A stretch of DNA of 64,000 bases from an uncultured Gammaproteobacteria bacterium (GCA_964536975.1 CAZHYS010000001.1:34329-98328); one strand, 5' to 3'. Shown: positions 37,368-62,300, counted from the stretch's first letter. The notes: generated by a model not told the origin, from the sequence alone. Program-made: numbers and translations.

Positions 37368-38636
37368 ATGAAAATCGTTGTTATTCATCCAATTTTTCAG
37401 CCGGAAACTCGCGGCGGCGCCGAGGTCGCCGTTGATAATATTGTCAACGGTCTTCTTGCCGCCGGCCACAATGTCGTCGTAATTTGCGTTGGCCGGAAAG
37501 ACGTTTCCGAAATCTCGGCTAATTATTTTCCCGATCAAAATGAAAGTTTGACGGTTTACCGTATCAAGCCGTTTAATCTTTTCAATTTTTTGGATATCAA
37601 TTCCCAGCCGGCTTGGCGCCGTTTGCCCTGGCACATTATTGATATGTTCAATATCAATCAGGCGTGGCGAGTCAAAGATATTTTATGCCAAGAAAATCCG
37701 GATTTGGTATTGACGCACAATCTCAAGGGCCTCGGCTACCTGATTCCTCGCGCCATTAAAAAATTAAAATTAAAACACGCCCATACCATTCACGATATGC
37801 AATTGTTGCATCCGTCCGGCCTGCTCGTAGAGACGGGGCATGCCCCGTCTCTACCAGTGGCCATTTATCGCTGGTTTTGCCGCTGGCTATTTGGTTCGCC
37901 GGAGACAGTGGCGTTTCCTTCCGAGTATATCAAAGCGGTTTACGAGCGTTACGGTTTTTTCAAAAAATCTTATAAGGTAGTCATCGGCAATCCGATTCAA
38001 TTTCCAATTTTTAATTTAAAATTTTCAAAAAAAACCGAAATTCTAAATTCTAAATTTCAAATTCTTTTCCTCGGTCAGGTGGAGGCCTACAAAGGCATTT
38101 TTGAGCTCATTGAGGCGCTAAAAGGGGTAACGGGCGATTGGGCACTGAATGTCGTGGGCGATGGCAAGGCCTTGCCAAAGGCCAAAATTTTGGCCCAGGA
38201 GGCCACTCCTGATGCCCTTTCTGGGGCTCTGGCTGGCCCCAGGATCAAGTTTTGGGGGCGCCTTGGCCAATCAGAGCTGGAGGAGAAAATCTGGCCGCGA
38301 ACAAATATTTTGGTCAACCCCAGCCTCACTAATGAAAGTTTTGGCATGGTGGTGGTTGAAGCGTATGCCCATGGCGTGCCGGCGCTGGTTTCGGGTAGGG
38401 GCGCTCTGCCGGAATTGGTGCGAGAAGGGGAGACAGGGTTTGTTGTTTCTTCCTCCCCCTTTAAAAGAGGGAGGCTGGGAGGGGGTGATTCCGCAGAATC
38501 ATGGCGGGAGAAAATAGATTGGTGTTTGACGCACCGCCGCGAGATAGAGGGGATGAGAGAGAAATGTATAAAAGAAGCGGAGAAGTATAAATTGGAAAAT
38601 TATTTGAATAGATTATTAAATTATATCAATAATTAA
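37368..38636 (+). CDS. GT4 glycosyltransferase (carries in-frame mini-repeat insertion)
   Basis: 'GGAEV' N-terminus, 'ESFGMVVVEAYAHGVPALVS' EX7E; insertion 'SSPFKRGRLGGGDSAES' encoded by GC-rich palindromic element. Confidence 0.75.
   Translation: MKIVVIHPIFQPETRGGAEVAVDNIVNGLLAAGHNVVVICVGRKDVSEISANYFPDQNESLTVYRIKPFNLFNFLDINSQPAWRRLPWHIIDMFNINQAWRVKDILCQENPDLVLTHNLKGLGYLIPRAIKKLKLKHAHTIHDMQLLHPSGLLVETGHAPSLPVAIYRWFCRWLFGSPETVAFPSEYIKAVYERYGFFKKSYKVVIGNPIQFPIFNLKFSKKTEILNSKFQILFLGQVEAYKGIFELIEALKGVTGDWALNVVGDGKALPKAKILAQEATPDALSGALAGPRIKFWGRLGQSELEEKIWPRTNILVNPSLTNESFGMVVVEAYAHGVPALVSGRGALPELVREGETGFVVSSSPFKRGRLGGGDSAESWREKIDWCLTHRREIEGMREKCIKEAEKYKLENYLNRLLNYINN
38451..38487. repeat. GC-rich palindromic mini-repeat, copy B (in-frame inside GT4 CDS)
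   Basis: 'tcctccccctttaaaagagggaggctgggagggggt'. Confidence 0.75.
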
Positions 38637-44518: not shown

Positions 44519-44930
44519 TTGTCATTGCGAGTCCGCCGCGGCGGATATGGCAATCCCATATTGATTAAGAGTAACCATTCTAAAAACATGGGATCGCCAC
44601 AGTCGTCCGCTTTCGTATTAACAAAATCGTCCTCCCTCGCGATGACACAGTCTTTCGGGTTACCGACTATTCCGAGTTCCGTAGAGACGTCCCGAGCGTT
44701 CGGGGCGTCTCTACAATTATTACTGATTACTTGTTACTTATTACGGTTTCATAGACTTTATGAACTTTACGGACTTTATAGACTTTTGACTACTAAAATT
44801 CCATGTTATGCGTTACGTGATTTCCGAGTTACGAGTCGCGAGTTCCGGGTTGCGGATAGACGCGATAAATCGCGTCTCTACAAATCCCTACATCCTAATT
44901 CCTAATTCCTAATCCCTGTGCTATAATATA
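44519..44930. repeat. Composite intergenic repeat block (palindromic 'gtcattgcgag...cgcgatgacaca', 'ccgagttacgagtcgcgagttccg', 'cctaattcctaa' arrays)
   Basis: Related copies at 50100-50310 and 62150-62300; ORF 44519..44905 here is repeat-derived. Confidence 0.6.
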
Positions 44931-46289: not shown

Positions 46290-46369
46290 TTTATATTTTA
46301 AGTTTTTATTTTTAATTTTTCATTTTGCGTTTTTCGCTTTACGCTTTCCGCTTTACGTCTTACGTTTTT

Positions 46370-47188
46370 ATGCTCAACATCTACCAACCCCATCAAGCCA
46401 AGATCGTTTCGGCGGTTCAAGAATCAATTGACACTTGTCTTTTTAGATTCAAATTTGTTGACCTTGGCGTCCAGGACGATTTCCGTTTTTTGCCCGGCCA
46501 ATTTGTCCAAATCGGTTTGCCCGGTTGGGGAGAATGTCCGATTAGCATTTGTTCATCGTCTGCCGATAGCGAAGATTTTTTTGAATTGGCCATTAGGGAT
46601 GTCGGGACACTCACTCACAAATTGAATAGCTTGAGGGCCGGCGATATCGTTGATGTGCGCGGGCCGTTTGGCAATGGTTTTGACGCGGACTTATTCAAAG
46701 GCAAGCCGCTACTGCTCATTGGCGGCGGTTGCGGTTTTATTCCTTTGCGGTCGCTAATAATTGATCATCTTCATAGTCGGCTGAAGAATACCAGCCTGCA
46801 GATTCTTTATGGTTGCGCCAGTGAAAGCACGATGCTGTTTAAAAAAGATCACGCCGCTTGGAATCGGCGCGCCGAGCTGAAAGTCATCTTGGAGCATCCA
46901 TCAAAGGAATGGAGGGGCGAGCGGGGATTGGTCACGGACCTAATCGGCAAAATAAAAATTACCAGCGATACGGTCGCGGTGCTGGTCGGGCCGCCGGTAA
47001 TGTACAAATTCGTCATCAAAGAACTCAAAAAAAAGAAAATCAGCGCGGAAAATATTTTTGTGTCGCTGGAAAAAAGAATGTATTGCGGCGTCGGCGTTTG
47101 CCAGCATTGCGCCATTGGTCCGTTTTATGTCTGTAAAGATGGCCCGGTTTTCCGGTGGTTAGATATTGAAAAGTATTATAGTCAATAA
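46370..47188 (+). CDS. hydG: Hydrogenase gamma subunit (FAD/NAD(P)-binding + C-terminal 2Fe-2S; HydG/AsrB-like)
   Basis: 'FLPGQFVQIGLPGWGECPISICS', 'LLLIGGGCGFIPLRS', C-terminus 'CGVGVCQHCAIGPFYVCKDGPVF'; ORF opens at 46325 within repeat-like sequence. Confidence 0.65.
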   Translation: MLNIYQPHQAKIVSAVQESIDTCLFRFKFVDLGVQDDFRFLPGQFVQIGLPGWGECPISICSSSADSEDFFELAIRDVGTLTHKLNSLRAGDIVDVRGPFGNGFDADLFKGKPLLLIGGGCGFIPLRSLIIDHLHSRLKNTSLQILYGCASESTMLFKKDHAAWNRRAELKVILEHPSKEWRGERGLVTDLIGKIKITSDTVAVLVGPPVMYKFVIKELKKKKISAENIFVSLEKRMYCGVGVCQHCAIGPFYVCKDGPVFRWLDIEKYYSQ

Positions 47189-47236
47189 AGTCAAAAGTCA
47201 AAAGTCTATAAAGTCCGTAAAGTCCATAAAGTCAAA
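47182..47236. repeat. Inverted-repeat partner of 44748-44793 (about 38 bp core, 1 mismatch)
   Basis: 'agtcaaaagtctataaagtccgtaaagtccataaagtc' is reverse complement of 'gactttatgaactttacggactttatagacttttgact'. Confidence 0.7.
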
Positions 47237-47321
47237 TTGACAAATTGTTATATTGTTAAATTGTCCGCTGCCGTTTTAAAATTAAAAATTGTTTTGAAAT
47301 TTTAAATTTAAAATTGGAAAT

Positions 47322-47362
47322 TTTATTAGACATTAGAAATTAGACATTAGAAATTTTATTAG
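47322..47362. repeat. 'tagaaatt/tagacatt' repeat array; inverted partner at 52751-52781, related copy 57310-57350
   Basis: 'ttttattagacattagaaattagacattagaaattttattag' vs 'tctaatttctaatgtctaatttctaataaaa'. Confidence 0.65.
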
Positions 47363-47436
47363 TCCCTAATCGCTAAATGCTACTTGCTATACGCCATAAG
47401 CCATAAGCTATTCGCTATTTGCCATAAGCCATTCCT

Positions 47437-48687
47437 ATGTGTCTTACTATCCCTCTCCAAATCAAAAATATTTCCAACGGCCGGGCCGAGCTGTCCGATG
47501 GCCGTCTGGTTGTCGCGCCGTTAATCTCTGATTTGAAAAAAGGGGATTGGGTGCTCCACACTGGCGATTTTTTGATAAAAAAAATAGAGGCCGAAGAAGC
47601 TCGGGAGATTCTGGAACTGATTGATTCGTATCCCGGAATTAATTTGGATGAATTTCCGCCGAAGTTCAAAAATATTTTGGAGTCAACCGCCGAGCGGGAA
47701 TTGTCCGCGCAGGAGATTGAATACTTGCTCGGCATTGAAGACGAGCAGCTGCTCCGGGCGATTTATTCCCAAGCCAATACGATTAGAAAATTGAGCATCA
47801 AGGATCATATTTGCATCCACGGCATTATTGAGTTTTCCAATCATTGCCGCAACAACTGTTTGTATTGCGGATTGCGGAGTGACAATGATATCCGGCGTTA
47901 TCGGATGAGCGTGGAGGAGATTGTTGATCGGGCGGTTTGGGCGGCCGAAGATAAGGGCTATAAAATTCTGGTACTGCAGTCGGGTGAGGACGAATATTAT
48001 GATGAAGAAAGATTATTGCAAATCGTGAGAGGCATCAAATCCCGTTGCCGAGTATTTATCTATTTGAGCATCGGCGACAAGCCAATGGAGACTTACGCCA
48101 AATTGAAAGTAGCGGGCGCGAGCGGGGTATTGTATCGGTTTGAAACTTCCAATAGCGAATTGTATGCAAAATTGCATCCAGGCGACAACTTGGCGGAGCG
48201 ACTGGACAACATCAGAAAAATGAAAGCGCTCGGCTACATCATTTCTTCCGGGCCGATCATCGGTTTGCCCGGCCAGACCATTAAGGATTTGGCGAATGAT
48301 GTGGAGCTGATGCGGGGGTTGGGCGTATTTATGCCGTCAATGGGGCCGTTTATTCCGGCCGGCGGGACGCCGCTGGAGCAGGCAAAGAGCGGTGATTTTG
48401 AACTGTCGCTCAAAATGATCGCGGTGACGCGGCTGGCAATGCCCAAGGCGCGGATTCCGGTGACGACGGCGATGGAGACAATCGGCCCGGCCGATGCCCG
48501 CCATTTGGCGTTTATGGCCGGCGCTAATAGCGTGATGTTCAATCTGACGCCGGAAAAATACCGCAAGGATTATTTTATTTATAACAACAAATTTTTTGAT
48601 CGTGAAAGAAGATACGAGAAATGGGCACTATTTAAGGGAGAGCTTAGTTATAAAATGTTGGAAGACGAGATTGGAGTGAAAATATAG
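47437..48687 (+). CDS. HypC-like domain fused to BioB/HydE-family radical SAM domain
   Basis: N-terminus 'MCLTIPLQIKNI...GDWVLHTGDFLIKKIEAEEAREILELI' collinear with HypC/HupF; 'CRNNCLYCG' CxxxCxxC plus BATS-like region. Confidence 0.65.
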   Translation: MCLTIPLQIKNISNGRAELSDGRLVVAPLISDLKKGDWVLHTGDFLIKKIEAEEAREILELIDSYPGINLDEFPPKFKNILESTAERELSAQEIEYLLGIEDEQLLRAIYSQANTIRKLSIKDHICIHGIIEFSNHCRNNCLYCGLRSDNDIRRYRMSVEEIVDRAVWAAEDKGYKILVLQSGEDEYYDEERLLQIVRGIKSRCRVFIYLSIGDKPMETYAKLKVAGASGVLYRFETSNSELYAKLHPGDNLAERLDNIRKMKALGYIISSGPIIGLPGQTIKDLANDVELMRGLGVFMPSMGPFIPAGGTPLEQAKSGDFELSLKMIAVTRLAMPKARIPVTTAMETIGPADARHLAFMAGANSVMFNLTPEKYRKDYFIYNNKFFDRERRYEKWALFKGELSYKMLEDEIGVKI

Positions 48688-48782: not shown

Positions 48783-49595
48783 ATGAAATTGAAAAGTAAA
48801 ATCAAAAAACCGCGGATTGCGATTATCGGCCTTACTTCGTGCGAGGGTTGCCAATTTGTGATGCTGGATCAGGGCAAGAAATTTTTGGATTGGCTGGACA
48901 AAGTGGAAATGGAGGAGTTCCGTTTGATAGAGGACGAGCCAATGTTGGCGTCGCATTACGATATTTGTTTTGTGGAAGGCAATCCTGTCACTCGCGCCAA
49001 CATCAAATTGCTCAAAGAGATGCGGCAGAAATCGGACAAACTAGTGGTAGTTGGCAATTGCGCCGCCTTGGGCGGGGTGTGGGAGCTCAAAAATTACGCT
49101 TCCAAAACCAAAGCGATCAGGGCGGTGTACAAAAAATTGAAAGTCCCGAATCCCGACATCAAAGAAGTGGACAATTTTGTCAAAGTGGATTATGTCATTC
49201 CCGGCTGTCCGATTGACGGGGATGAATTTATTGAGCTGGCCAATCAGCTTTTGGCCAAGAAGACTTTCCGTCTCTCGCAAAATCCGGTTTGCGATGAATG
49301 TCAAAAAGCCGGTTATGAGTGCCTGCTCCAAAAAGGTGAGATTTGTCTCGGACCGATTACGCTCGGCGGTTGTCATGCGGTCTGCTTGAAATCAAAACAG
49401 GCCTGCTGGGGTTGTCGCGGGTTGTTTGATGGCGCGCAAGTGGAAAATTTTATGGAATATCTGCTGAAAAATTTTTCTCGCGAACAAGTCTATCGGGTAA
49501 TGGAGGTATTTGGCGCGCGCGATACGATTTTGAAGCGATTGAAAGAAATGCAGGCGGGAGAGGATGAAAAATCAAAAATAAAATTTAAAAAATAA
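48783..49595 (+). CDS. hydD: [NiFe] hydrogenase small (delta) subunit
   Basis: 'RIAIIGLTSCEGCQFVML', 'VVVGNCAALGGV', 'GCP' motifs of NuoB/HydD-type small subunits; Cys-rich C-terminus. Confidence 0.7.
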   Translation: MKLKSKIKKPRIAIIGLTSCEGCQFVMLDQGKKFLDWLDKVEMEEFRLIEDEPMLASHYDICFVEGNPVTRANIKLLKEMRQKSDKLVVVGNCAALGGVWELKNYASKTKAIRAVYKKLKVPNPDIKEVDNFVKVDYVIPGCPIDGDEFIELANQLLAKKTFRLSQNPVCDECQKAGYECLLQKGEICLGPITLGGCHAVCLKSKQACWGCRGLFDGAQVENFMEYLLKNFSREQVYRVMEVFGARDTILKRLKEMQAGEDEKSKIKFKK

Positions 49596-49596
49596 T

Positions 49597-49636
49597 TCAC
49601 GTCAGTACGCGCGTACTGACGTTCGTACTGACGTCA
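49597..49636. promoter_or_regulatory. 24-bp perfect palindrome 'acgtcagtacgcgcgtactgacgt' plus extra half-site
   Basis: Immediately upstream of AbrB-like small ORF; candidate operator or hairpin. Confidence 0.5.
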
Positions 49637-49641
49637 AATAT

Positions 49642-49809
49642 ATGATAAAATACATTAGAAAGCTGCAAAAAGCGAGCACCCACAGCTACGTTATCACAAT
49701 TCCCAAGGAGTTGATAGAAAAGTTTCGTTGGAAAGAAAGACAGAAATTGGAAATCGCTTGCGACGGCAAAACCGCCAAATTGACAATTAAGGATTGGCGT
49801 AAAAAATAA
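49642..49809 (+). CDS. AbrB/MazE (SpoVT-AbrB) family small DNA-binding protein, 55 aa
   Basis: 'THSYVITIPKELIEKFRWKERQKLEI...KLTI' swapped-hairpin-like; below ORF-track size cut-off. Confidence 0.45.
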   Translation: MIKYIRKLQKASTHSYVITIPKELIEKFRWKERQKLEIACDGKTAKLTIKDWRKK

Positions 49810-49820
49810 TCGGCAAAAAT

Positions 49821-50075
49821 ATGTCGGTAGAAATCTTAGAACAGCCGCAAATAGATCGGCTGGATTTGGAGCATCGGGATTACCTCCAGCGCGAAGTGAT
49901 GCGGCAAATGCTCGGAGAAGAGCCGGGTTATGAAACTCAGCTTGACTGGGTACTTAAATACGGCAAAAAAGTCAGTGATTTGATTGATTTTCACGAGCAT
50001 GACGAAATTAGGGGCTTGGCCATGGATGGCAATTATGAAGAGGCGGCGCAGAGATTAATTGAGTTGTTGGATTGA
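49821..50075 (+). CDS. Hypothetical acidic 84-aa protein
   Basis: ORF only. Confidence 0.4.
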   Translation: MSVEILEQPQIDRLDLEHRDYLQREVMRQMLGEEPGYETQLDWVLKYGKKVSDLIDFHEHDEIRGLAMDGNYEEAAQRLIELLD

Positions 50076-50384
50076 TGGGGGATGGAATACTGGGATCGTA
50101 GGCAGTAATCAGTAATTGGTAACGGGATTTTGGTTCGGAACTCGTAACTCGCGACTCGTAACTCGGAATAGTCCGTGATGTGGAGTACTGCGTCATCCCG
50201 AGCGAAGTCGAGGGATCCCTCCACGGAGTTTACCCTGAGCGTAGTCGAAGGGATCGGGATGACAAAATGGAAATGGGATTGCTTCGTCCGCTTGAGGCGT
50301 CCTCGCAATGACAGTGCTAAGCGGATTGGAAATTTATTGTAAATTTTAAATTGAAAACTTGTGGTGAACGAAGCTGAACCATTA

Positions 50385-50642
50385 AAAATTTGTAGCTATG
50401 CGCATCCAAATTAATCATATTGGCAAGATGTCCGCCTTCGCTCCGTTGAGCTTTGGCGAGACGAATATTTAGATAATTAATTATTTTTTTAAAATTTGTA
50501 GCTATGCGCATCCAAATTAATCATATTGGCAAGATGTCCGCCTTCGCTCCGTTGAGCTTTGGCGAGACGAATATTTAGATAATTAATTATTTTTTTAAAA
50601 TTTGTAGCTATGCGCATCCAAATTAATCATATTGGCAAGATG
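50385..50642 (+). repeat. 106-bp tandem direct repeat (about 2.3 copies), each copy containing the first 33 nt of hydA and its upstream region
   Basis: 'aaaatttgtagctatgcgcatccaaattaatcatattggcaagatg' recurs with ATGs at 50398, 50504, 50610; first two copies continue 'tccgccttcgctccgttgagctttggcgagacgaatatttag'. Confidence 0.85.
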
Positions 50643-51941
50643 GAGGGGCACGCTGATTTTGTGGCCGAGATTTTGCGTGGCGATGTAAAATCAGCCAAAA
50701 TCATCACCACCGAAGGCGCGCGGCTGATTGAAGGCATCTTGATCGGTCGGCATTTTTCCGAGGCGCCGATAATCACCTCTCGCATTTGTGGCATTTGTCC
50801 GGTCGTCCACAAATTGTCATCAATCAAAGCGATTGAAAACGCCTTTGACATTACGCCCAGAGAACAAATCGTCAAACTCCGCAAATTGATCAATTTGGCG
50901 CAAGTCATCCATAGTCACGCGCTTCATCTTTTCTTCTTGTCTTTGCCGGATTTTTTTGACATTGAAAACGATCTCAACTTTGTCAAAAAATATCCTCGCG
51001 AAACAGGGTGCGCCATCAAGACGAGGGATTGGGCGCTCAAAATCATTGAGGTCGTCGGCGGCCGGGCCGTTCATCCGATTGCCTGCGAGGTCGGCGGTTT
51101 CAAAGTTTGGCCGGAAAAAAACGAATTGAAAAATCTAGCCGATCAATACGAAACGATTTTGAAAAATGCTTTGAGTCTGGTCAATTTTGCCATCACGATA
51201 AAATATCCGAGGTTTCGCCGGCCAACCGCGTTTGTCAGCTTGACAAACAAAGACGAGTACGCGCTGTACGACGGCGATGTCAAAATAACAGAACCGGACG
51301 GCGGGAGCCGGATAATCAAAGCGGAAAGATATACCAAAAATATCAAAGAGATAGAGGAGCCGTATCGGGCGGCTAAGTCGGCGACTTTAGACGGCAAGCC
51401 GTTTATGGTCGGCGCTTTGGCGCGAATAAACAATAATCGCGACCAGCTCAATCCGTTGGCCAAGGGATTGCTCAAAGGATTAAATTGGAGATTTCCGCAG
51501 TACAACACTTTTGAAAACATTACCGCTCAGGCGATTGAAATAGTCCATTGCATTGAAGAGGCAAAGAAGATTTTGGATGATTTGGTGTCTGACTCCTCCA
51601 CCTTACGGAGGGGGAGGCTGGGAGGGGGTAAAACGCAAAAGGAAGAACAGCTATCATTGGATGTCATCGCCGGCGCCAATCCACTCGGCCGGGAAGCAAT
51701 AGGCGTAGACGCGATTGAAGCGCCGCGGGGCACCTTGTATCATTATTACAAGATCGATAAGAATGGCTATATCGCTGATTGCAACATTATCACGCCGACC
51801 GTTTCTTATCTGAAAAATTTGGAAGCGGATGTTTTGGCCTATCTCCCCAACGTGATGAAACTGCCTACCAAAAAACGGGCGATCAAAATCCGTGGCCTTA
51901 TCCGCGCTTACGATCCGTGTATTGCGTGTGCGACACACTGA
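50610..51941 (+). CDS. hydA: [NiFe] hydrogenase large (alpha) subunit, group 3b-like, without C-terminal processing extension
   Basis: N-terminal 'RICGICPVVH' and C-terminal 'DPCIACATH' nickel-binding motifs; protein ends at the His. Confidence 0.8.
   Translation: MRIQINHIGKMEGHADFVAEILRGDVKSAKIITTEGARLIEGILIGRHFSEAPIITSRICGICPVVHKLSSIKAIENAFDITPREQIVKLRKLINLAQVIHSHALHLFFLSLPDFFDIENDLNFVKKYPRETGCAIKTRDWALKIIEVVGGRAVHPIACEVGGFKVWPEKNELKNLADQYETILKNALSLVNFAITIKYPRFRRPTAFVSLTNKDEYALYDGDVKITEPDGGSRIIKAERYTKNIKEIEEPYRAAKSATLDGKPFMVGALARINNNRDQLNPLAKGLLKGLNWRFPQYNTFENITAQAIEIVHCIEEAKKILDDLVSDSSTLRRGRLGGGKTQKEEQLSLDVIAGANPLGREAIGVDAIEAPRGTLYHYYKIDKNGYIADCNIITPTVSYLKNLEADVLAYLPNVMKLPTKKRAIKIRGLIRAYDPCIACATH
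51594..51629. repeat. GC-rich palindromic mini-repeat, copy C (in-frame inside hydA)
   Basis: 'tcctccaccttacggagggggaggctgggagggggt' encodes 'SSTLRRGRLGGG'. Confidence 0.75.
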
Positions 51942-51945
51942 AATG

Positions 51946-52056
51946 GCATATGGCTAATAGCTTATAGCATATAGCTTATAGCTTATAGCTTATAGCTTAT
52001 AGCTTATAGCATATAGCATATAACATATAGCTTATAGCATATAGCATATGGTATAT
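51946..52056. repeat. Microsatellite (agcttat / agcatat heptamer array)
   Basis: 'agcttatagcttatagcttatagcttatagcttatagcatatagcatat'; reverse-complement motif 'ccataagc' arrays at 47385-47430 and 52455-52480. Confidence 0.85.
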
Positions 52057-52081
52057 AATGAATAAATTATAATGATACTTC

Positions 52082-52435
52082 ATGTTTAGGTTTGAAAGTT
52101 TGGAAATATGGCAGGAAGCCATTAAATTTTCTAATTTAATTTATAATATAACAGGAAAGTTTCCCAAAGAAGAATTATTTGGATTGGCCAGTCAATTAAA
52201 TAGAGCGGCGGTTTCGGTTTCTGCAAATATAGCCGAAGGATCAGCAGCTGCCTCGGTAAAAGAATTTACTATGTTTCTTGGCTTTTCAATCCGCTCGGGA
52301 GTTGAAGTTATTTCGGAATTATTTATCGCAAAGGAGAGGGGATATATTAAAGATCAAGAATTTCAAGAATTATATTCTATCGGGGAAATATTAATAAAAA
52401 GAATAACTTTTTTCAAAAACAATTTAAAAAAATAG
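52082..52435 (+). CDS. Four-helix-bundle protein (23S rRNA IVS protein family)
   Basis: 'LASQLNRAAVSVSANIAEGSAAASVKEF'. Confidence 0.7.
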   Translation: MFRFESLEIWQEAIKFSNLIYNITGKFPKEELFGLASQLNRAAVSVSANIAEGSAAASVKEFTMFLGFSIRSGVEVISELFIAKERGYIKDQEFQELYSIGEILIKRITFFKNNLKK

Positions 52436-52485
52436 GCAGATGTCATGTGTTATGAGCCATATGCCATTAGCCATAAGCTAATTTT

Positions 52486-52740
52486 ATGCACGATTTCCAT
52501 CTCGCCGACCAAATCTACAAGACGATTATGGATTACGCGGCGAAAAACAACCTGAAAAAAATCACCAAAGCGACGATTGAACTCGGCTCAATTGTGGAGC
52601 ATGGCGAAGAAATTTTGCCGGAGAATTTGGTTTTTAACATTAAGATGTTGGCCGAAGGCGGACTAGCGGAAGGCCTGGAAGTGTCTGTCGCCAAAATCGC
52701 CGGCGACAGTTGGATACTTAAGGAGATAGAAGGAGAATAG
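52486..52740 (+). CDS. HypA-like N-terminal domain protein lacking Zn-finger
   Basis: 'MHDFHLADQIYKTIMDYAAKNNLKKITKATIELGSI' resembles HypA MHE N-terminus; no Cys in 84 aa. Confidence 0.4.
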   Translation: MHDFHLADQIYKTIMDYAAKNNLKKITKATIELGSIVEHGEEILPENLVFNIKMLAEGGLAEGLEVSVAKIAGDSWILKEIEGE

Positions 52741-52869
52741 GAATGAAGTTTCTAATTTCTAATGTCTAATTTCTAATAAAATTCAAATTTTTAAATTTTA
52801 TTTGTTTTTTTGTAGTTTTTGATTTTGAATTTTATGCGGCTATCTTAATCTATGTTATAATATGTTCAG

Positions 52870-54045
52870 ATGAAAATAAAATCCATTCGCCAAGTTAAGA
52901 ATCTGCGAGGCAAGCGCGTACTCATTCGCGTTGATTTCAACGTGCCGCTTGGCGCCAATGGCAAAGTTGATCCCGAAGAAGAGTACCGGATCATTCAGAG
53001 CTTGCCGACGATAAAATATTTGATCAAGAAAAAAGCCAAAGTAATCATCATGGCTCATTTGGGCCGGCCGGATGGCAGGGTGGTGGAAAAATTCCGCTTG
53101 GATCCGGTGGCGGCTCGCTTGGCGCGGCTATTGGGTAAAAGCATTTACAAAAGCGACATCGTCATCGGCAAGGATGTGGAAAAAAAGATTGCCGAGATGA
53201 AAAAGGGCGACGTCTTGATGCTGGAGAATGTCCGGTTTGATCGTCGCGAAGAGACGGGAAACAAGACCTTTGCCAGACAGCTGGCTAAGCTTGGTGATAT
53301 TTTCGTCAACGACGGGTTTGCTGTATCTCATCGCGAGCATGTTTCAGTGGCGACAATCCAAAATTATCTCCCTAGCTACGGCGGTTTCCTTTTGGAACAA
53401 GAAATTGATAACTTGAGCGGAGTTTTTGATCGATCGCCCAAGCCGCTGGTGGCCGTTATCGGCGGCGCCAAAATTTCCACCAAAATAAAAGTCATCGGCA
53501 GATTTTTGGATTCGGCTGATTATGTCCTCCTCGGCGGCGCGCTGGCCAACACTGTTCTAAAAGCGCTTGGCGTGGCTGTCGGCAAATCAATGATTGAGCC
53601 CAAGATGGTAGATGAAATAAGAAAAATAAAATTGACTGATGATCAGTTGCGCGTGCCGGTGGACGGAATTTTCGCGTCCAGCTTCAAGGCCATCAAGGGC
53701 CGAATTGACGCGCTCGGCGATATCCGCAAAAACGAGGTGATTTTGGATATCGGGCCGGATACGATAGAATTATATCGGCATATCATCAGTCAAGCCAAGA
53801 CGATCGTGTGGAACGGGCCGATGGGACTGGTTGAAACGCCGTTTTTTGCCCGCGGCACCAGGGAGCTGATCAAGATTTTGGCCGCTTCCAAAGCCAAGAC
53901 TATCGTCGGCGGCGGCGAGACAGTGCAACTGATTCGGAAAATGGGTTTGGAAAAAAAGTTTACCTTTATTTCCACCGGCGGCGGCGCGATGCTGGAATTT
54001 TTGGAAGGGAAGAAGCTACCAGGGCTTAAAAAAATAGTTTCTTGA
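52870..54045 (+). CDS. pgk: Phosphoglycerate kinase
   Basis: 'VLIRVDFNVPL', 'MAHLGRP', 'GGGA' hinge motifs. Confidence 0.9.
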   Translation: MKIKSIRQVKNLRGKRVLIRVDFNVPLGANGKVDPEEEYRIIQSLPTIKYLIKKKAKVIIMAHLGRPDGRVVEKFRLDPVAARLARLLGKSIYKSDIVIGKDVEKKIAEMKKGDVLMLENVRFDRREETGNKTFARQLAKLGDIFVNDGFAVSHREHVSVATIQNYLPSYGGFLLEQEIDNLSGVFDRSPKPLVAVIGGAKISTKIKVIGRFLDSADYVLLGGALANTVLKALGVAVGKSMIEPKMVDEIRKIKLTDDQLRVPVDGIFASSFKAIKGRIDALGDIRKNEVILDIGPDTIELYRHIISQAKTIVWNGPMGLVETPFFARGTRELIKILAASKAKTIVGGGETVQLIRKMGLEKKFTFISTGGGAMLEFLEGKKLPGLKKIVS

Positions 54046-56472: not shown

Positions 56473-57297
56473 ATGGAAAAATATTGTTTTTTAAATGGTC
56501 GGACCGTGTCTTTGAAAAACGCGAAAATACCGATAGATGACATCGGCGTTTTGCGCGCTTATGGCGTTTTTGATTTTCTTCGCACTTATCATGGTCGGCT
56601 GTTTCTTTTTCGTGAACATTGGCAACGGTTTTGCCGATCGGCCAAGACATTGGGTGTAAAAATTCCGACTTCGGAGGCGCAGACCAAGAAGATAGTTTAT
56701 GATTTGATGAAGAAAAATGAGCTGTCAGATGCGACTGCCCGTCTGGTCTTGACTGGCGGCTCAAGTCGAGATGGCATGCATTTTGGCGATAGCCAGCCGA
56801 ACTTTTTCATTCTGCTTGGCAAAATTCCGCCGCGAAAAGAGAAGGATTATATCAATGGCGTGGAATTATTACCGGTAGAACATCAACGGGAATTTCCGAT
56901 CGCCAAATCAAATAGTTATTTGACCTCCATAAAATTCAAAAATTTTCCCCATTCAGATAAAATATTGGATTTGCTGTATTGCGACGATGGAAAAATCTTG
57001 GAGGGATCGACTTGCAATTTCTTTCTGATCAAGGGAAATAATTTGATCACAGCCAAGGATGGCATTTTGTCTGGTGTAACGAGAAATTTTGTCATCAAGC
57101 TGGCCAAGAAGAAAATGAAGGTGAAGGAAAGAGAGGTCTTGTTTGAAGAATTAAAACAGGCCGATGAGACGTTTATTACTACCACCACCAAAGAAATCCT
57201 GCCTGTGGTCAAAGTGGGAAAAGTCAAAGTCGGCTCTGGGAAAGTAGGTGAGAAGACAAAAATGTTGATGGGATTGTTTAGAGAAGCGGTTGGATAG
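56473..57297 (+). CDS. Class IV (fold type IV) PLP-dependent aminotransferase (BCAT/DAAT/ADCL family)
   Basis: About 270 aa; 'YGVFDFLRTY', 'EGSTCNFF', 'GVTR' motifs. Confidence 0.65.
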   Translation: MEKYCFLNGRTVSLKNAKIPIDDIGVLRAYGVFDFLRTYHGRLFLFREHWQRFCRSAKTLGVKIPTSEAQTKKIVYDLMKKNELSDATARLVLTGGSSRDGMHFGDSQPNFFILLGKIPPRKEKDYINGVELLPVEHQREFPIAKSNSYLTSIKFKNFPHSDKILDLLYCDDGKILEGSTCNFFLIKGNNLITAKDGILSGVTRNFVIKLAKKKMKVKEREVLFEELKQADETFITTTTKEILPVVKVGKVKVGSGKVGEKTKMLMGLFREAVG

Positions 57298-57373
57298 AAA
57301 ATTGTAATTATTAATTAGAAATTAGGATTTAGAAATTAGAAATTTAATGAGTAATTATTTTTTTTAAAATCCA

Positions 57374-62100: not shown

Positions 62101-62158
62101 ATTAATTTTCAATTTTCAATTTAAAATTTACAATAAATTTTCAATCTGCTTTCATGTT

Positions 62159-62300
62159 GTCATCCCGACCCCTTCGACTACGCTCAGGGTAAACTCCGTG
62201 GAGGGATCCCTCCACTCGTCCGCTTGGAGGCGTCCTCGGCCGGAATGACACAGTATCCCGAATTCCGAGTCGCTAGTCCCGGGTCCCGTTACTGGTTACT
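62159..62300. repeat. Dispersed palindromic element (inverted copy of 50188-50310 element)
   Basis: 'ttgtcatcccgaccccttcgactacgctcagggtaaactccgtggagggatccctcc...cgtccgcttggaggcgtcctcg' matches 50188-50310 in opposite orientation. Confidence 0.75.

What the first reader, a model, noticed from the sequence alone, without database searches (positions are those of the whole stretch)
50385..50642. 106-bp tandem triplication of the hydA translation start region
Seen in sequence: the 33 nt 'atgcgcatccaaattaatcatattggcaagatg' that begins hydA, together with about 45 nt of upstream sequence ('aaaatttgtagct', including the likely RBS context), appear three times with a 106-bp period (ATGs at 50398, 50504, 50610). 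The first two copies diverge after codon 11 into 'tccgccttcgctccgttgagctttggcgag acg aat att tag' and hit a stop. So there are two decoy start sites, each encoding a 25-aa peptide (MRIQINHIGKMSAFAPLSFGETNI), ahead of the real gene. This could be a uORF/leader-peptide-type regulatory arrangement, a recombination hotspot for on/off switching of hydrogenase expression, or an assembly artefact of a repeat.
Basis: seen in the sequence. Interest (0 to 1): 0.55.

Follow-up and report, generated by a model that had tools for sequence, protein, structure and literature searches.

The report
Tandem duplication scar at hydA start
A 106-bp stretch holding the first 11 codons of a hydrogenase gene is repeated head-to-tail just before the real gene in one uncultivated bacterium; it looks like a very young scar of an insertion and duplication at a recombination-prone gene junction, not a conserved regulatory device.

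Summary
The repeat is real in the sequence: window 50385-50642 is a 106-bp unit repeated 2.43 times at 100% identity. The layout is A-B-A-B-A. A (46 nt) is 13 nt of upstream sequence plus hydA codons 1-11. B (60 nt) carries an in-frame stop. This gives two 24-aa decoy ORFs ahead of the true start at 50610, whose N-terminus (M[KR]IQINHIGKMEGH) is conserved across the family.

The array is not conserved. None of 108 related hydA loci has it, and all 13 close relatives have one copy and no B. B matches nothing in the window, the related loci, or the public genome, metagenome, viral, phage and plasmid collections. No RNA structure, Rfam family or terminator was found.

The hydD-hydA junction is an insertion hotspot in Patescibacteria. 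One distant relative (L103) has an independent, diverged (88%) 90-nt duplication of the same junction flanking a PIN toxin cassette, and it also creates a decoy hydA start.

Best reading: a young insertion and duplication scar, with the uORFs as a by-product. A k-mer test shows that B and both its junctions must be in the reads, but a short-read assembly gives only a lower bound on copy number. This is ordinary and of low interest.

The parts
50385..50430 (+). A copy 1 (46 nt): AAAATTTGTAGCT plus hydA codons 1-11 (ATG at 50398). Its 5' flank is the ancestral upstream sequence.
   Evidence: L003 shows the same upstream motif running directly into a single A.
50398..50472 (+). Decoy ORF 1, 24 aa (MRIQINHIGKM|SAFAPLSFGETNI), stop TAG at 50470-50472.
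50431..50490 (+). B copy 1 (60 nt). It has a G+C-richer first part (52% G+C over its first 42 nt) that can form a small imperfect hairpin, followed by an AT-rich tail ending in T7. Its origin is unknown.
   Evidence: fold -13.5 kcal/mol, z = -1.95. No match anywhere.
50491..50536 (+). A copy 2 (ATG at 50504).
50504..50578 (+). Decoy ORF 2, identical 24-aa product. Its stop lies 31 nt before the real ATG.
50537..50596 (+). B copy 2, identical to B copy 1.
50597..50642 (+). A copy 3. It is continuous with the rest of hydA and so is the functional start region.
50610..51941 (+). hydA, [NiFe]-hydrogenase large subunit of group-3b (sulfhydrogenase-like) type, 443 aa. 50610 is the true start.
   Evidence: PF00374, E = 9.4e-39. 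Best NCBIfam matches are sulfhydrogenase HydA/ShyA, below their cut-offs. The N-terminus M[KR]IQINHIGKMEGH has EGH at residues 12-14 in 91 of 120 homologs.
50468..50495 (+). Promoter-like match TTTAGA-16-TAAAAT created across the B/A junction. The second hexamer ends 8 nt before the ATG at 50504.
   Evidence: 9 of 12 matches; 6 sites found in the region against 3.2 +/- 1.8 in shuffles, so this is weak.
50574..50601 (+). The same promoter-like match at the second B/A junction, 8 nt before the real ATG at 50610.
50358..50381 (+). 24-nt extra segment (CTTGTGGTGAACGAAGCTGAACCA) relative to L003, lying between the AT-rich upstream motif and A copy 1.
   Evidence: No source found.
50325..50357 (+). 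AT-rich, heptamer-periodic 33-nt motif. It is part of a dispersed repeat: an inverted copy lies at 62113-62145, and it also sits upstream of hypC-rSAM in L004/L035/L036/L105 and of hydA in L003.
50136..50318 (.). Mosaic of dispersed short repeat and hairpin elements filling the enlarged intergenic region. Inverted copies lie at 44627-44854 and 62150-62216.
   Evidence: Fragments also hit unrelated Patescibacteria loci.
48783..49595 (+). hydD, the small (delta) subunit. It is separated from hydA by 1014 nt here.
49642..50075 (+). MazE/AbrB-like 55-aa ORF (49642-49809) plus an 84-aa ORF (49821-50075). The pair is conserved between hydD and hydA in the close clade.

Best explanation
The array is a very recent, lineage-specific structural scar at the 5' edge of hydA, not a conserved regulatory element.

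The ancestral state was upstream motif - A - hydA, with one copy of A and no B. A 60-nt piece of foreign or unplaced DNA (B) became inserted together with a direct duplication of the 46-nt start region, giving A-B-A-hydA. This is the topology expected from single-crossover (Campbell-type) integration, or from a duplication-plus-insertion repair event. Unequal or slipped recombination between the identical A (or A-B-A) copies then added a second unit.

Because the 3'-most A copy stays continuous with the gene, hydA remains intact. The upstream copies are left as two self-contained 24-aa decoy ORFs. Their local initiation context is the same as that of the real start, since this genome rarely uses Shine-Dalgarno sites. 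They are therefore probably translated as incidental uORFs with at most a modest effect on hydA expression.

Shown: the repeat, its exact boundaries, its absence from relatives, the conserved true start, the lack of RNA structure, and the hotspot nature of the junction. Inferred: the order of events, the recombination mechanism, and the neutrality.
For: (1) Perfect array: 2.43 units at 100% identity.

(2) Derived state. All 13 relatives at 81% or more have one start copy and no B. L003 shows the window's upstream motif joined directly to a single A, so copy 1 keeps the ancestral 5' flank and copy 3 the ancestral 3' flank. No array was found in any of the 108 relatives that include the N-terminal region.

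(3) The three A copies are identical, while the nearest relative differs at 4 synonymous sites within the same 33 nt. The event is therefore much younger than the split between these lineages.

(4) 50610 is the real start: MKIQINHIGKMEGH is conserved with EGH at residues 12-14 in 91 of 120 homologs.

(5) There is an independent precedent with the same topology. In L103, a 90-nt direct repeat (88% identical) made of the hydD 3' end plus hydA codons 1-16 flanks a 75-aa ORF and a PIN_3 toxin (E = 2.9e-20). It also leaves a decoy start, VKITVPHIHKIEGEAG|LGKYGKKSENLTF*. Diverged copies in a separate assembly cannot be an assembler artefact.

(6) The junction is an insertion hotspot. The hydD-hydA gap is 30 nt or less in 31 loci, 31-150 nt in 11, 151-400 nt in 15 and over 400 nt in 32, out of 89 loci, and the inserted genes are heterogeneous. 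The window's own intergenic region is a mosaic of dispersed repeats.

(7) No signature of a regulatory RNA: fold z-scores of -0.27 to -1.95, no + strand terminator between 50076 and 50609, no Rfam match.

(8) The k-mer test shows that a single-copy locus can never give the assembled k-mer set, so B and both junctions are present in the reads.
Against: The origin of B is unknown. It has no nucleotide or peptide match in the window, in 114 related loci, or in the genome, metagenome, viral, phage and plasmid collections. The claim that it is an inserted piece therefore rests on comparison with relatives alone.

No mobile gene is associated with the insert here, unlike in L103.

There is only 2 nt (TT) of microhomology at the left boundary, which does not identify a mechanism.

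The contig is known from a single assembly, and no reads are available, so neither the copy number nor its heterogeneity is verified.

Neutrality is inferred. A promoter-like site does arise at each B/A junction.
Confidence: 0.6

Rival explanations
1. Assembly artefact: the locus really holds one copy of the start region (or one A-B-A), and the assembler or scaffolder created or expanded the tandem array.
For: The units are 100% identical. The period (106 bp) is in the size range where short reads cannot count copies. The contig is known from one assembly only. The k-mer test shows that c = 1 and c = 2 are indistinguishable for k of 47 or less, and that all c of 2 or more are indistinguishable for k of 153 or less. 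Tandem repeats are a documented source of copy-number errors in de Bruijn assemblies (PMC6868369).
Against: A single-copy locus (c = 0) never yields the assembled k-mer set at any k tested. B, the A|B junction and the B|A junction must all exist in reads. For k of 48 or more, which covers the usual final k values, c = 1 is also distinguishable, so the assembled B-A-B junction implies at least 2 units. Collapse, not expansion, is the usual error for repeats (PMC6868369). There are no Ns and no other perfect long repeats in the window. L103 shows that this kind of structure exists naturally.
Confidence: 0.15
2. Copy-number-variable expression module. Each B/A junction supplies a sigma-70-like promoter (TTTAGA-16-TAAAAT) 8 nt before an ATG. 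It would give hydA its own promoter after repeat elements were inserted upstream, and gain or loss of units would tune expression.
For: The promoter scan flags exactly the two B/A junctions. B contributes the T that turns AAAAAT (copy 1, 4 of 6) into TAAAAT (copies 2 and 3, 5 of 6). pgk (52870) and hydB (44937) have perfect TATAAT hexamers 8-9 nt before their ATG. The 24-nt insertion separates the ancestral upstream motif from A copy 1.
Against: Promoter-like matches are not enriched: 6 found against 3.2 +/- 1.8 in shuffles. The -10-like hexamer at 5-10 nt before the ATG occurs in 7 of 50 genes, against 4-5 of 50 at control offsets. Nothing is conserved in relatives. Such AT-rich hexamers arise easily in AT-rich spacers. 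There is no evidence of copy-number polymorphism.
Confidence: 0.1
3. Leader-peptide or uORF regulation: translation of the 24-aa decoy ORFs controls hydA through attenuation, ribosome stalling or re-initiation.
For: There are two uORFs whose initiation context (13 nt upstream plus 11 codons) is identical to that of the real start. The second stops 31 nt before the hydA ATG. The genome rarely uses SD sites (9 of 52 ORFs), so the decoys should initiate about as well as the real start.
Against: No relative has it. L103's decoy has a different sequence and origin. There is no terminator or alternative hairpin and no Rfam hit. The peptide tail has no homolog and no runs of regulatory codons. 100% identity between the copies implies there has been no time for selection to shape it.
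Confidence: 0.05
4. CRISPR-like mini-array made by off-target spacer integration (repeat = A, spacer = B).
For: The geometry fits: a 46-nt repeat and 60-nt spacers, with the repeat duplicated on each side of an insert of unknown origin.
Against: The two 'spacers' are identical, which points to unit amplification and not to separate acquisitions. The repeat is the start of a conserved protein-coding gene. No other array is present in the window. B has no match in viral contigs or phages.
Confidence: 0.02

Closest known systems
Tandem duplication and amplification by unequal or slipped recombination between direct repeats (VNTR-type loci)
   Same: Head-to-tail identical units. The state is derived relative to related genomes. 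Once two A copies exist, copy number is expected to be unstable.
   Different: The unit is not a simple duplication of ancestral sequence. 60 of its 106 nt (B) are absent from the ancestral locus, so an insertion must have preceded or accompanied the duplication.
Insertions flanked by a duplicated target segment (Campbell-type single-crossover integration). Seen here in L103, where a PIN toxin cassette is flanked by a 90-nt repeat of the hydD/hydA junction.
   Same: Direct repeats made of native hydA start sequence flank non-native DNA. The left copy joins the native upstream sequence and the right copy joins the intact gene. A truncated decoy hydA start is left behind.
   Different: In the window the insert is only 60 nt, carries no gene, has no identifiable source and is itself repeated. 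In L103 the insert is 696 nt with two genes, and the repeats have diverged to 88%.
Leader-peptide attenuators and regulatory uORFs (trpL, ermCL type; from general knowledge)
   Same: Short ORFs lie immediately upstream of a structural gene on the same strand.
   Different: Those are conserved, have specific regulatory codons or stalling motifs, and have alternative RNA hairpins. None of these features was found here.
Phase-variable contingency loci (repeat-number switching; from general knowledge)
   Same: A tandem repeat lies at the 5' end of a gene.
   Different: Contingency repeats change the reading frame or the promoter spacing. Here each unit is self-contained, and the last A copy always keeps the same 73-nt upstream context and an intact frame.

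Membership tests
Leader-peptide attenuator / regulatory uORF | The uORF is conserved upstream of the orthologous gene in related genomes | tested here: not met
   0 of 108 relatives have a tandem copy. 13 of 13 close relatives have a single start. The motif search finds decoys only in the window and L103.
Leader-peptide attenuator / regulatory uORF | Alternative terminator/antiterminator hairpins, or hairpins that sequester the start site | tested here: not met
   No + strand terminator between 50076 and 50609. Fold z-scores are -0.27 for the whole leader, 0.11 around the real start and -1.95 for B alone. No Rfam match at E of 1 or less.
Leader-peptide attenuator / regulatory uORF | Translation of the uORF changes expression of the downstream gene | not testable with these tools
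   Needs ribosome profiling or reporter fusions.
Phase-variable contingency locus | A change in repeat number alters the reading frame or the promoter spacing of the gene | tested here: not met
   Each unit has its own ATG and TAG. Building arrays with 0-8 units always leaves A joined to hydA with the same junction (the construction used).
Phase-variable contingency locus | Copy-number polymorphism within the population | not testable with these tools
   No reads are available, and the contig is on record from one assembly only.
Simple tandem duplication (VNTR) | Head-to-tail identical copies that are absent from relatives | tested here: met
Simple tandem duplication (VNTR) | The whole unit is present once in the ancestral sequence | tested here: not met
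   B is absent from L003 and the other close relatives and from all 114 loci.
Insertion flanked by a duplicated target (Campbell-type / L103-type) | Direct repeats consist of native target sequence, with the outer flanks native on each side | tested here: met
   A is the hydA start. The copy-1 5' flank matches the L003 upstream sequence, and copy 3 continues into hydA.
Insertion flanked by a duplicated target (Campbell-type / L103-type) | The insert is identifiable as foreign or mobile DNA | tested here: inconclusive
   B has no match anywhere. In L103 the insert is a PIN_3 cassette.
CRISPR / neo-CRISPR array | Repeats are separated by different spacers | tested here: not met
   B1 and B2 are identical.
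CRISPR / neo-CRISPR array | cas1/cas2 are present in the genome | not tested
   The window's ORFs were not screened for Cas proteins, and the rest of the genome is unavailable.
Assembly artefact of a repeat | The assembled sequence can be derived from a simpler true sequence with the same k-mer content | tested here: inconclusive
   c = 0 is never equivalent. c = 1 is equivalent only at k of 47 or less. c of 3 or more is equivalent at k of 153 or less. The presence of the array is therefore supported, but the copy number is only a lower bound.
Group 3b [NiFe]-hydrogenase operon (context) | Large subunit together with delta, gamma and beta subunits | tested here: met
   PF00374 and PF01058. The best NCBIfam matches are to sulfhydrogenase HydA/ShyA, HydD/ShyD, HydG/ShyC and HydB/ShyB, all below the equivalog cut-offs. 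CPR hydrogenases are reported as group-3b-related (PMC7304191).

The most novel reading that the evidence does not exclude
The window's array and the L103 duplication may be two footprints of one recurrent process that delivers small cassettes to the translationally coupled hydD/hydA junction of Patescibacteria hydrogenase operons. For example, circular DNA carrying a copy of the junction could integrate by a single crossover. Each event would leave a duplicated hydA start, and the resulting copy-number-variable units (each with a promoter-like site and a decoy ORF) would retune hydA expression.
Probability: 0.08. Interest if true: 0.5.

Novelty: new member of a known kind. Interest (0 to 1): 0.18.

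Why it matters
On its own it matters little. It is one strain-specific structural variant upstream of a hydrogenase gene, and it warns annotators that the first two ATGs are not the gene start and that the copy number in this short-read MAG is unreliable.

The wider context is mildly useful. The hydD/hydA boundary of CPR group-3b-type hydrogenase operons turns out to be a hotspot where unrelated genes and small repeats are inserted. At least two independent events duplicated the hydA start. If these duplications prove common and affect expression, they would bear on how these streamlined genomes rewire operons.

Tried and rejected
- **Source of B inside the window.** blastn-short and gapped Smith-Waterman against shuffles found nothing above chance: best score 22, shuffles averaging 22.8. 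A by-eye resemblance of B to the element at 50283-50306 was therefore rejected.
- **B as an imported 3' gene end.** The idea was that B came from another lineage's region upstream of hydA. Six-frame peptides of B were compared with the 300 nt upstream of hydA in 85 distinct relatives, and all scores fell within the shuffle range.
- **B in public collections.** The exact 25-mer is absent from genome contigs, metagenome contigs and viral contigs. blastn of the unit against phages and plasmids gave no match.
- **Independent assemblies of this contig.** HydA and a gene near the window's end are not on record. The cluster look-up gave no accession or name.
- **Riboswitch or attenuator.** Rfam and folding were negative.
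- **Genome-wide leaderless-promoter geometry.** This would have made A a portable promoter plus start, but the positional enrichment is not significant.
- **CRISPR-like reading.** Rejected because the spacers are identical.
- **Database search with B's peptides.** A protein-database search with B's 15-20-aa peptides was considered and not run, because even a perfect match would be borderline significant at that database size.

Full report
**Observation.** Tandem Repeats Finder reports window 50385-50642 as a 106-bp unit in 2.4 copies, with 100% matches, no indels and a score of 516. A script confirmed that unit 1 equals unit 2 and that the final 46 nt equal the start of the unit.

The unit has two parts. 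A (46 nt, 50385-50430) is AAAATTTGTAGCT followed by the first 11 codons of the gene (ATGCGCATCCAAATTAATCATATTGGCAAGATG). B (60 nt, 50431-50490) is TCCGCC...TTTTTTT and contains an in-frame TAG. The layout is therefore A-B-A-B-A-gene, with ATGs at 50398, 50504 and 50610.

The first two ATGs open identical 24-aa ORFs, MRIQINHIGKM|SAFAPLSFGETNI. The 33-nt start occurs three times and the B core twice, and no shuffle of the window gave any match to either.

Three small corrections apply. The peptide is 24 aa, not 25. Only 13 nt of upstream sequence, not about 45, are common to all three copies. The array is 2.43 units, not a full triplication. It is the only long perfect repeat in the 64-kb window, which contains no Ns.

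**The gene and its true start.** ORF 50610-51941 is a [NiFe]-hydrogenase large subunit (PF00374, E = 9.4e-39). Its best NCBIfam matches are the sulfhydrogenase alpha subunits HydA/ShyA. The neighbouring ORFs match the beta (44937), gamma (46325) and delta (48783) subunits, all below the equivalog cut-offs.

Homologs carry Patescibacteria or Buchananbacteria names. CPR bacteria are reported to carry their own clades of group-3b-related hydrogenases (PMC7304191). So the label "hydA" is reasonable.

Among the 120 best homologs, 91 start M-[KR]-I-x-[IV]-N-H-[IL]-x-K-M-E-G-H, with EGH at residues 12-14. All 13 relatives at 81% identity or more begin with the same codons as A and continue into GAR-GGN-CAY. 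Copy 3 at 50610 is therefore the real start. The breakpoint between A and B falls just before the conserved EGH.

**Comparison with relatives.** The closest relatives (83-86% protein identity: L001-L004, L035-L037, L057, L104-L106, L108, L114) each have one start region and no B.

L003 is the most informative. Its sequence reads aaattcattgtaaattttaaattgaaaa|ttaaaaatttgtagtt|ATGCGT... This is the window's AT-rich upstream motif (50325-50357) joined directly to a single A that continues into the gene.

So A copy 1 keeps the ancestral 5' flank, A copy 3 keeps the ancestral 3' flank, and 212 nt, that is 2 x (B + A), are new. A 24-nt segment (50358-50381) is also extra relative to L003.

Across the 108 related loci that include the N-terminal region, none has a tandem copy of its own start. 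The three A copies are identical to one another, while L003 differs at four synonymous positions in the same 33 nt. The event is therefore far younger than the split between these lineages.

**Where B comes from.** This is unknown. B has no counterpart in any of the following:
- the rest of the window, by blastn-short and by a gapped local alignment whose best score of 22 equals the shuffle mean of 22.8;
- the 114 related loci, at nucleotide level or as peptides in any of six frames;
- the genome, metagenome and viral contig collections, as an exact 25-mer;
- phage or plasmid records.

B consists of a G+C-richer part (52% G+C over its first 42 nt) that can form a small imperfect hairpin (-13.5 kcal/mol, z = -1.95), followed by an AT-rich tail.

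**No sign of a regulatory RNA.** There is no Rfam match at E of 1 or less in 49000-53000. There is no + strand terminator-like site between 50076 and 50609. Folding of the unit, of the region around the real start and of the whole 361-nt leader gives z-scores of -0.57, 0.11 and -0.27.

A sigma-70-like match (TTTAGA-16-TAAAAT) does arise at each B/A junction and ends 8 nt before the ATG. However, such matches are not enriched in the region: 6 were found against 3.2 +/- 1.8 in shuffles.

The genome rarely uses Shine-Dalgarno sites; only 9 of 52 ORFs have an SD-like motif. A few genes have a perfect TATAAT 8-9 nt before the ATG. Even so, the positional signal that would indicate widespread leaderless transcripts is not significant: 7 of 50 genes, against 4-5 of 50 at control offsets. 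The idea that each unit carries its own promoter stays a minority rival.

**The junction is an insertion hotspot, with an independent precedent.** The window's 534-nt spacer before hydA compares with about 68 nt in L001 and L002. It is a mosaic of dispersed short repeats that also occur in inverted orientation at 44.6-44.9 kb and at 62113-62216.

Across 89 loci where hydD lies upstream on the same strand, the hydD-hydA gap is 30 nt or less in 31, 31-150 nt in 11, 151-400 nt in 15 and over 400 nt in 32, reaching 2.2 kb. From their sequences, the inserted ORFs look heterogeneous and include AspRS, radical-SAM, GIY-YIG, NUDIX and 23S-IVP-like genes (only the PIN protein of L103 was scanned against Pfam).

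A protein-motif search for extra hydA N-termini found exactly two sources with decoys, the window and L103. In L103, a 90-nt direct repeat (458-547 and 1244-1333, 88% identical) consists of the last ~40 nt of hydD plus the first 16 codons of hydA. It flanks a 75-aa ORF and a PIN_3 toxin gene (PF13470, E = 2.9e-20). The upstream copy is left as a decoy, VKITVPHIHKIEGEAG|LGKYGKKSENLTF*.

This is the same topology as in the window: native start, insert, native start, gene. Here, though, the insert is intact and the copies have diverged, in a separate assembly. The structure is therefore a natural kind of event and not something only an assembler produces.

**Assembly question.** No reads or independent assembly of this contig could be reached. 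A k-mer computation sets limits on what an artefact could explain:
- A single-copy locus never has the k-mer set of the assembled sequence, at any k tested. B and both of its junctions must be in the reads.
- A one-unit locus (A-B-A) is indistinguishable from the assembled two units only for k of 47 or less.
- All arrays with two or more units are indistinguishable for k of 153 or less.

With usual final k values, the assembled form is therefore the minimal path consistent with a B-A-B junction, and the true copy number could be higher or heterogeneous. This agrees with the general point that de Bruijn assemblies cannot resolve repeats longer than k and tend to collapse them (PMC6868369).

**Interpretation.** The best-supported reading (about 0.6) is a very young scar. 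B was inserted together with a duplication of the 46-nt start region, as in single-crossover integration or a duplication-insertion repair event. Unequal or slipped recombination then added a second unit.

hydA stays intact, and the decoy ORFs are by-products. Copy-number change cannot switch hydA off, because every unit is self-contained and the last A copy always keeps the same upstream context.

The rivals are:
- an assembly artefact (about 0.15, mainly concerning copy number);
- a copy-number-variable promoter module (about 0.1);
- a leader-peptide regulator (about 0.05);
- a CRISPR-like mini-array (about 0.02, rejected because the two "spacers" are identical).

**Verdict.** This is an ordinary, strain-specific structural variant at a junction that is unusually prone to insertions in this phylum. 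Interest is low (0.18). Novelty: a new member of a known kind.

Noticed in passing
L103:458-1333 (JGI contig Ga0172364_10058030): A 90-nt direct repeat (88% identical) made of the hydD 3' end plus hydA codons 1-16 flanks an inserted 75-aa ORF and a PIN_3 toxin. It leaves a 29-aa decoy hydA start that overlaps the hydD stop. This is an independent analogue of the window's structure.
   Followed up: yes
89 related loci (L001-L114), hydD-hydA spacer: The hydD/hydA junction is hypervariable in Patescibacteria. The gap is 30 nt or less in 31 loci and over 400 nt in 32 (up to 2.2 kb). From their sequences the inserted genes look unrelated to each other (AspRS, nitroreductase-like, radical SAM, GIY-YIG, HD, NUDIX, 23S-IVP, PIN).
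   Followed up: partly
window 51594-51629 (inside hydA) and 38451-38486: A 36-nt G/C-rich palindromic motif (TCCTCC..GGAGGCTGGGAGGGGGT) occurs twice at 83% identity. Inside hydA it lies in frame and coincides with the ~9-11 extra residues (TLRRGRLGGG) that make this clade's HydA 443 aa instead of 432-433. A similar hairpin sits upstream of hydA in L108. It looks like a small repeat element inserted in frame into a coding region.
   Followed up: partly
window 51941-52073, 46303-46373, 47180-47432, 44717-44917, 52749-52777, 57295-57357, 62104-62145: Many intergenic spacers are filled with 7-bp-period tandem arrays whose heptamers differ from spacer to spacer (for example TATAGCT x14 after hydA). 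Relatives carry other heptamers right before hydA (L001 TAATCGC/TAACAGC; L104 and L108 TTTTGAC/TTTTGAA).
   Followed up: partly
window 50136-50357 versus 44627-44854 and 62113-62216: Dispersed short repeat elements in inverted orientation (67 nt at 94%, 39 nt at 95%, 33 nt at 91%). The copy at 50 kb carries an extra 46-nt piece (50273-50318). The hairpin 'GTCATCCCGAGCGAAGTCGAGGGATC...' also hits unrelated Patescibacteria loci (L042, L086, L088, L089).
   Followed up: partly
window 47437-48687 (+): HypC (PF01455) is fused to a radical-SAM/BATS domain that scores above NCBIfam's cut-off for the [FeFe]-hydrogenase maturase HydE (TIGR03956, 266 bits against a cut-off of 254.6). It sits inside a [NiFe]-hydrogenase operon. 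A gene with a similar start (MCLAIPLQIKN...) is present in L004/L035/L036/L105.
   Followed up: no
window 49821-50075 (+), and homologs right before hydA in L004, L005, L045, L104, L106 and probably L025 and L044: A small (~85 aa) acidic protein family with no Pfam or NCBIfam match recurs immediately upstream of hydA in many Patescibacteria loci, often preceded by a MazE/AbrB-like 55-aa ORF. It may be an unrecognised hydrogenase-associated protein and not a toxin-antitoxin pair.
   Followed up: partly
window 52082-52435 (+), flanks 51942-51970 and 52440-52468: A 23S-rRNA-IVP-family four-helix-bundle gene (PF05635) lies between hydA and hypA, bracketed by inverted heptamer arrays. L003 has hypA directly after hydA, and L001 has a different 210-aa ORF there. 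L104 has a similar-looking gene upstream of hydA instead.
   Followed up: no
window, upstream regions of 52 ORFs: An SD-like motif occurs in only 9 of 52 ORF upstream regions. pgk (52870) and hydB (44937) have a perfect TATAAT 8-9 nt before the ATG, suggesting some leaderless or very short-leader mRNAs, but no significant genome-wide positional signal was found.
   Followed up: partly
window 50325-50357 plus 'TTAAAAATTTGT'; L004/L035/L036/L105:512-546; L003:1-40: The same AT-rich, heptamer-periodic motif followed by TTAAAAATTTGT lies immediately upstream of hydA in L003 and in the window, and upstream of the hypC-rSAM gene in four relatives. It may be a portable upstream element.
   Followed up: partly
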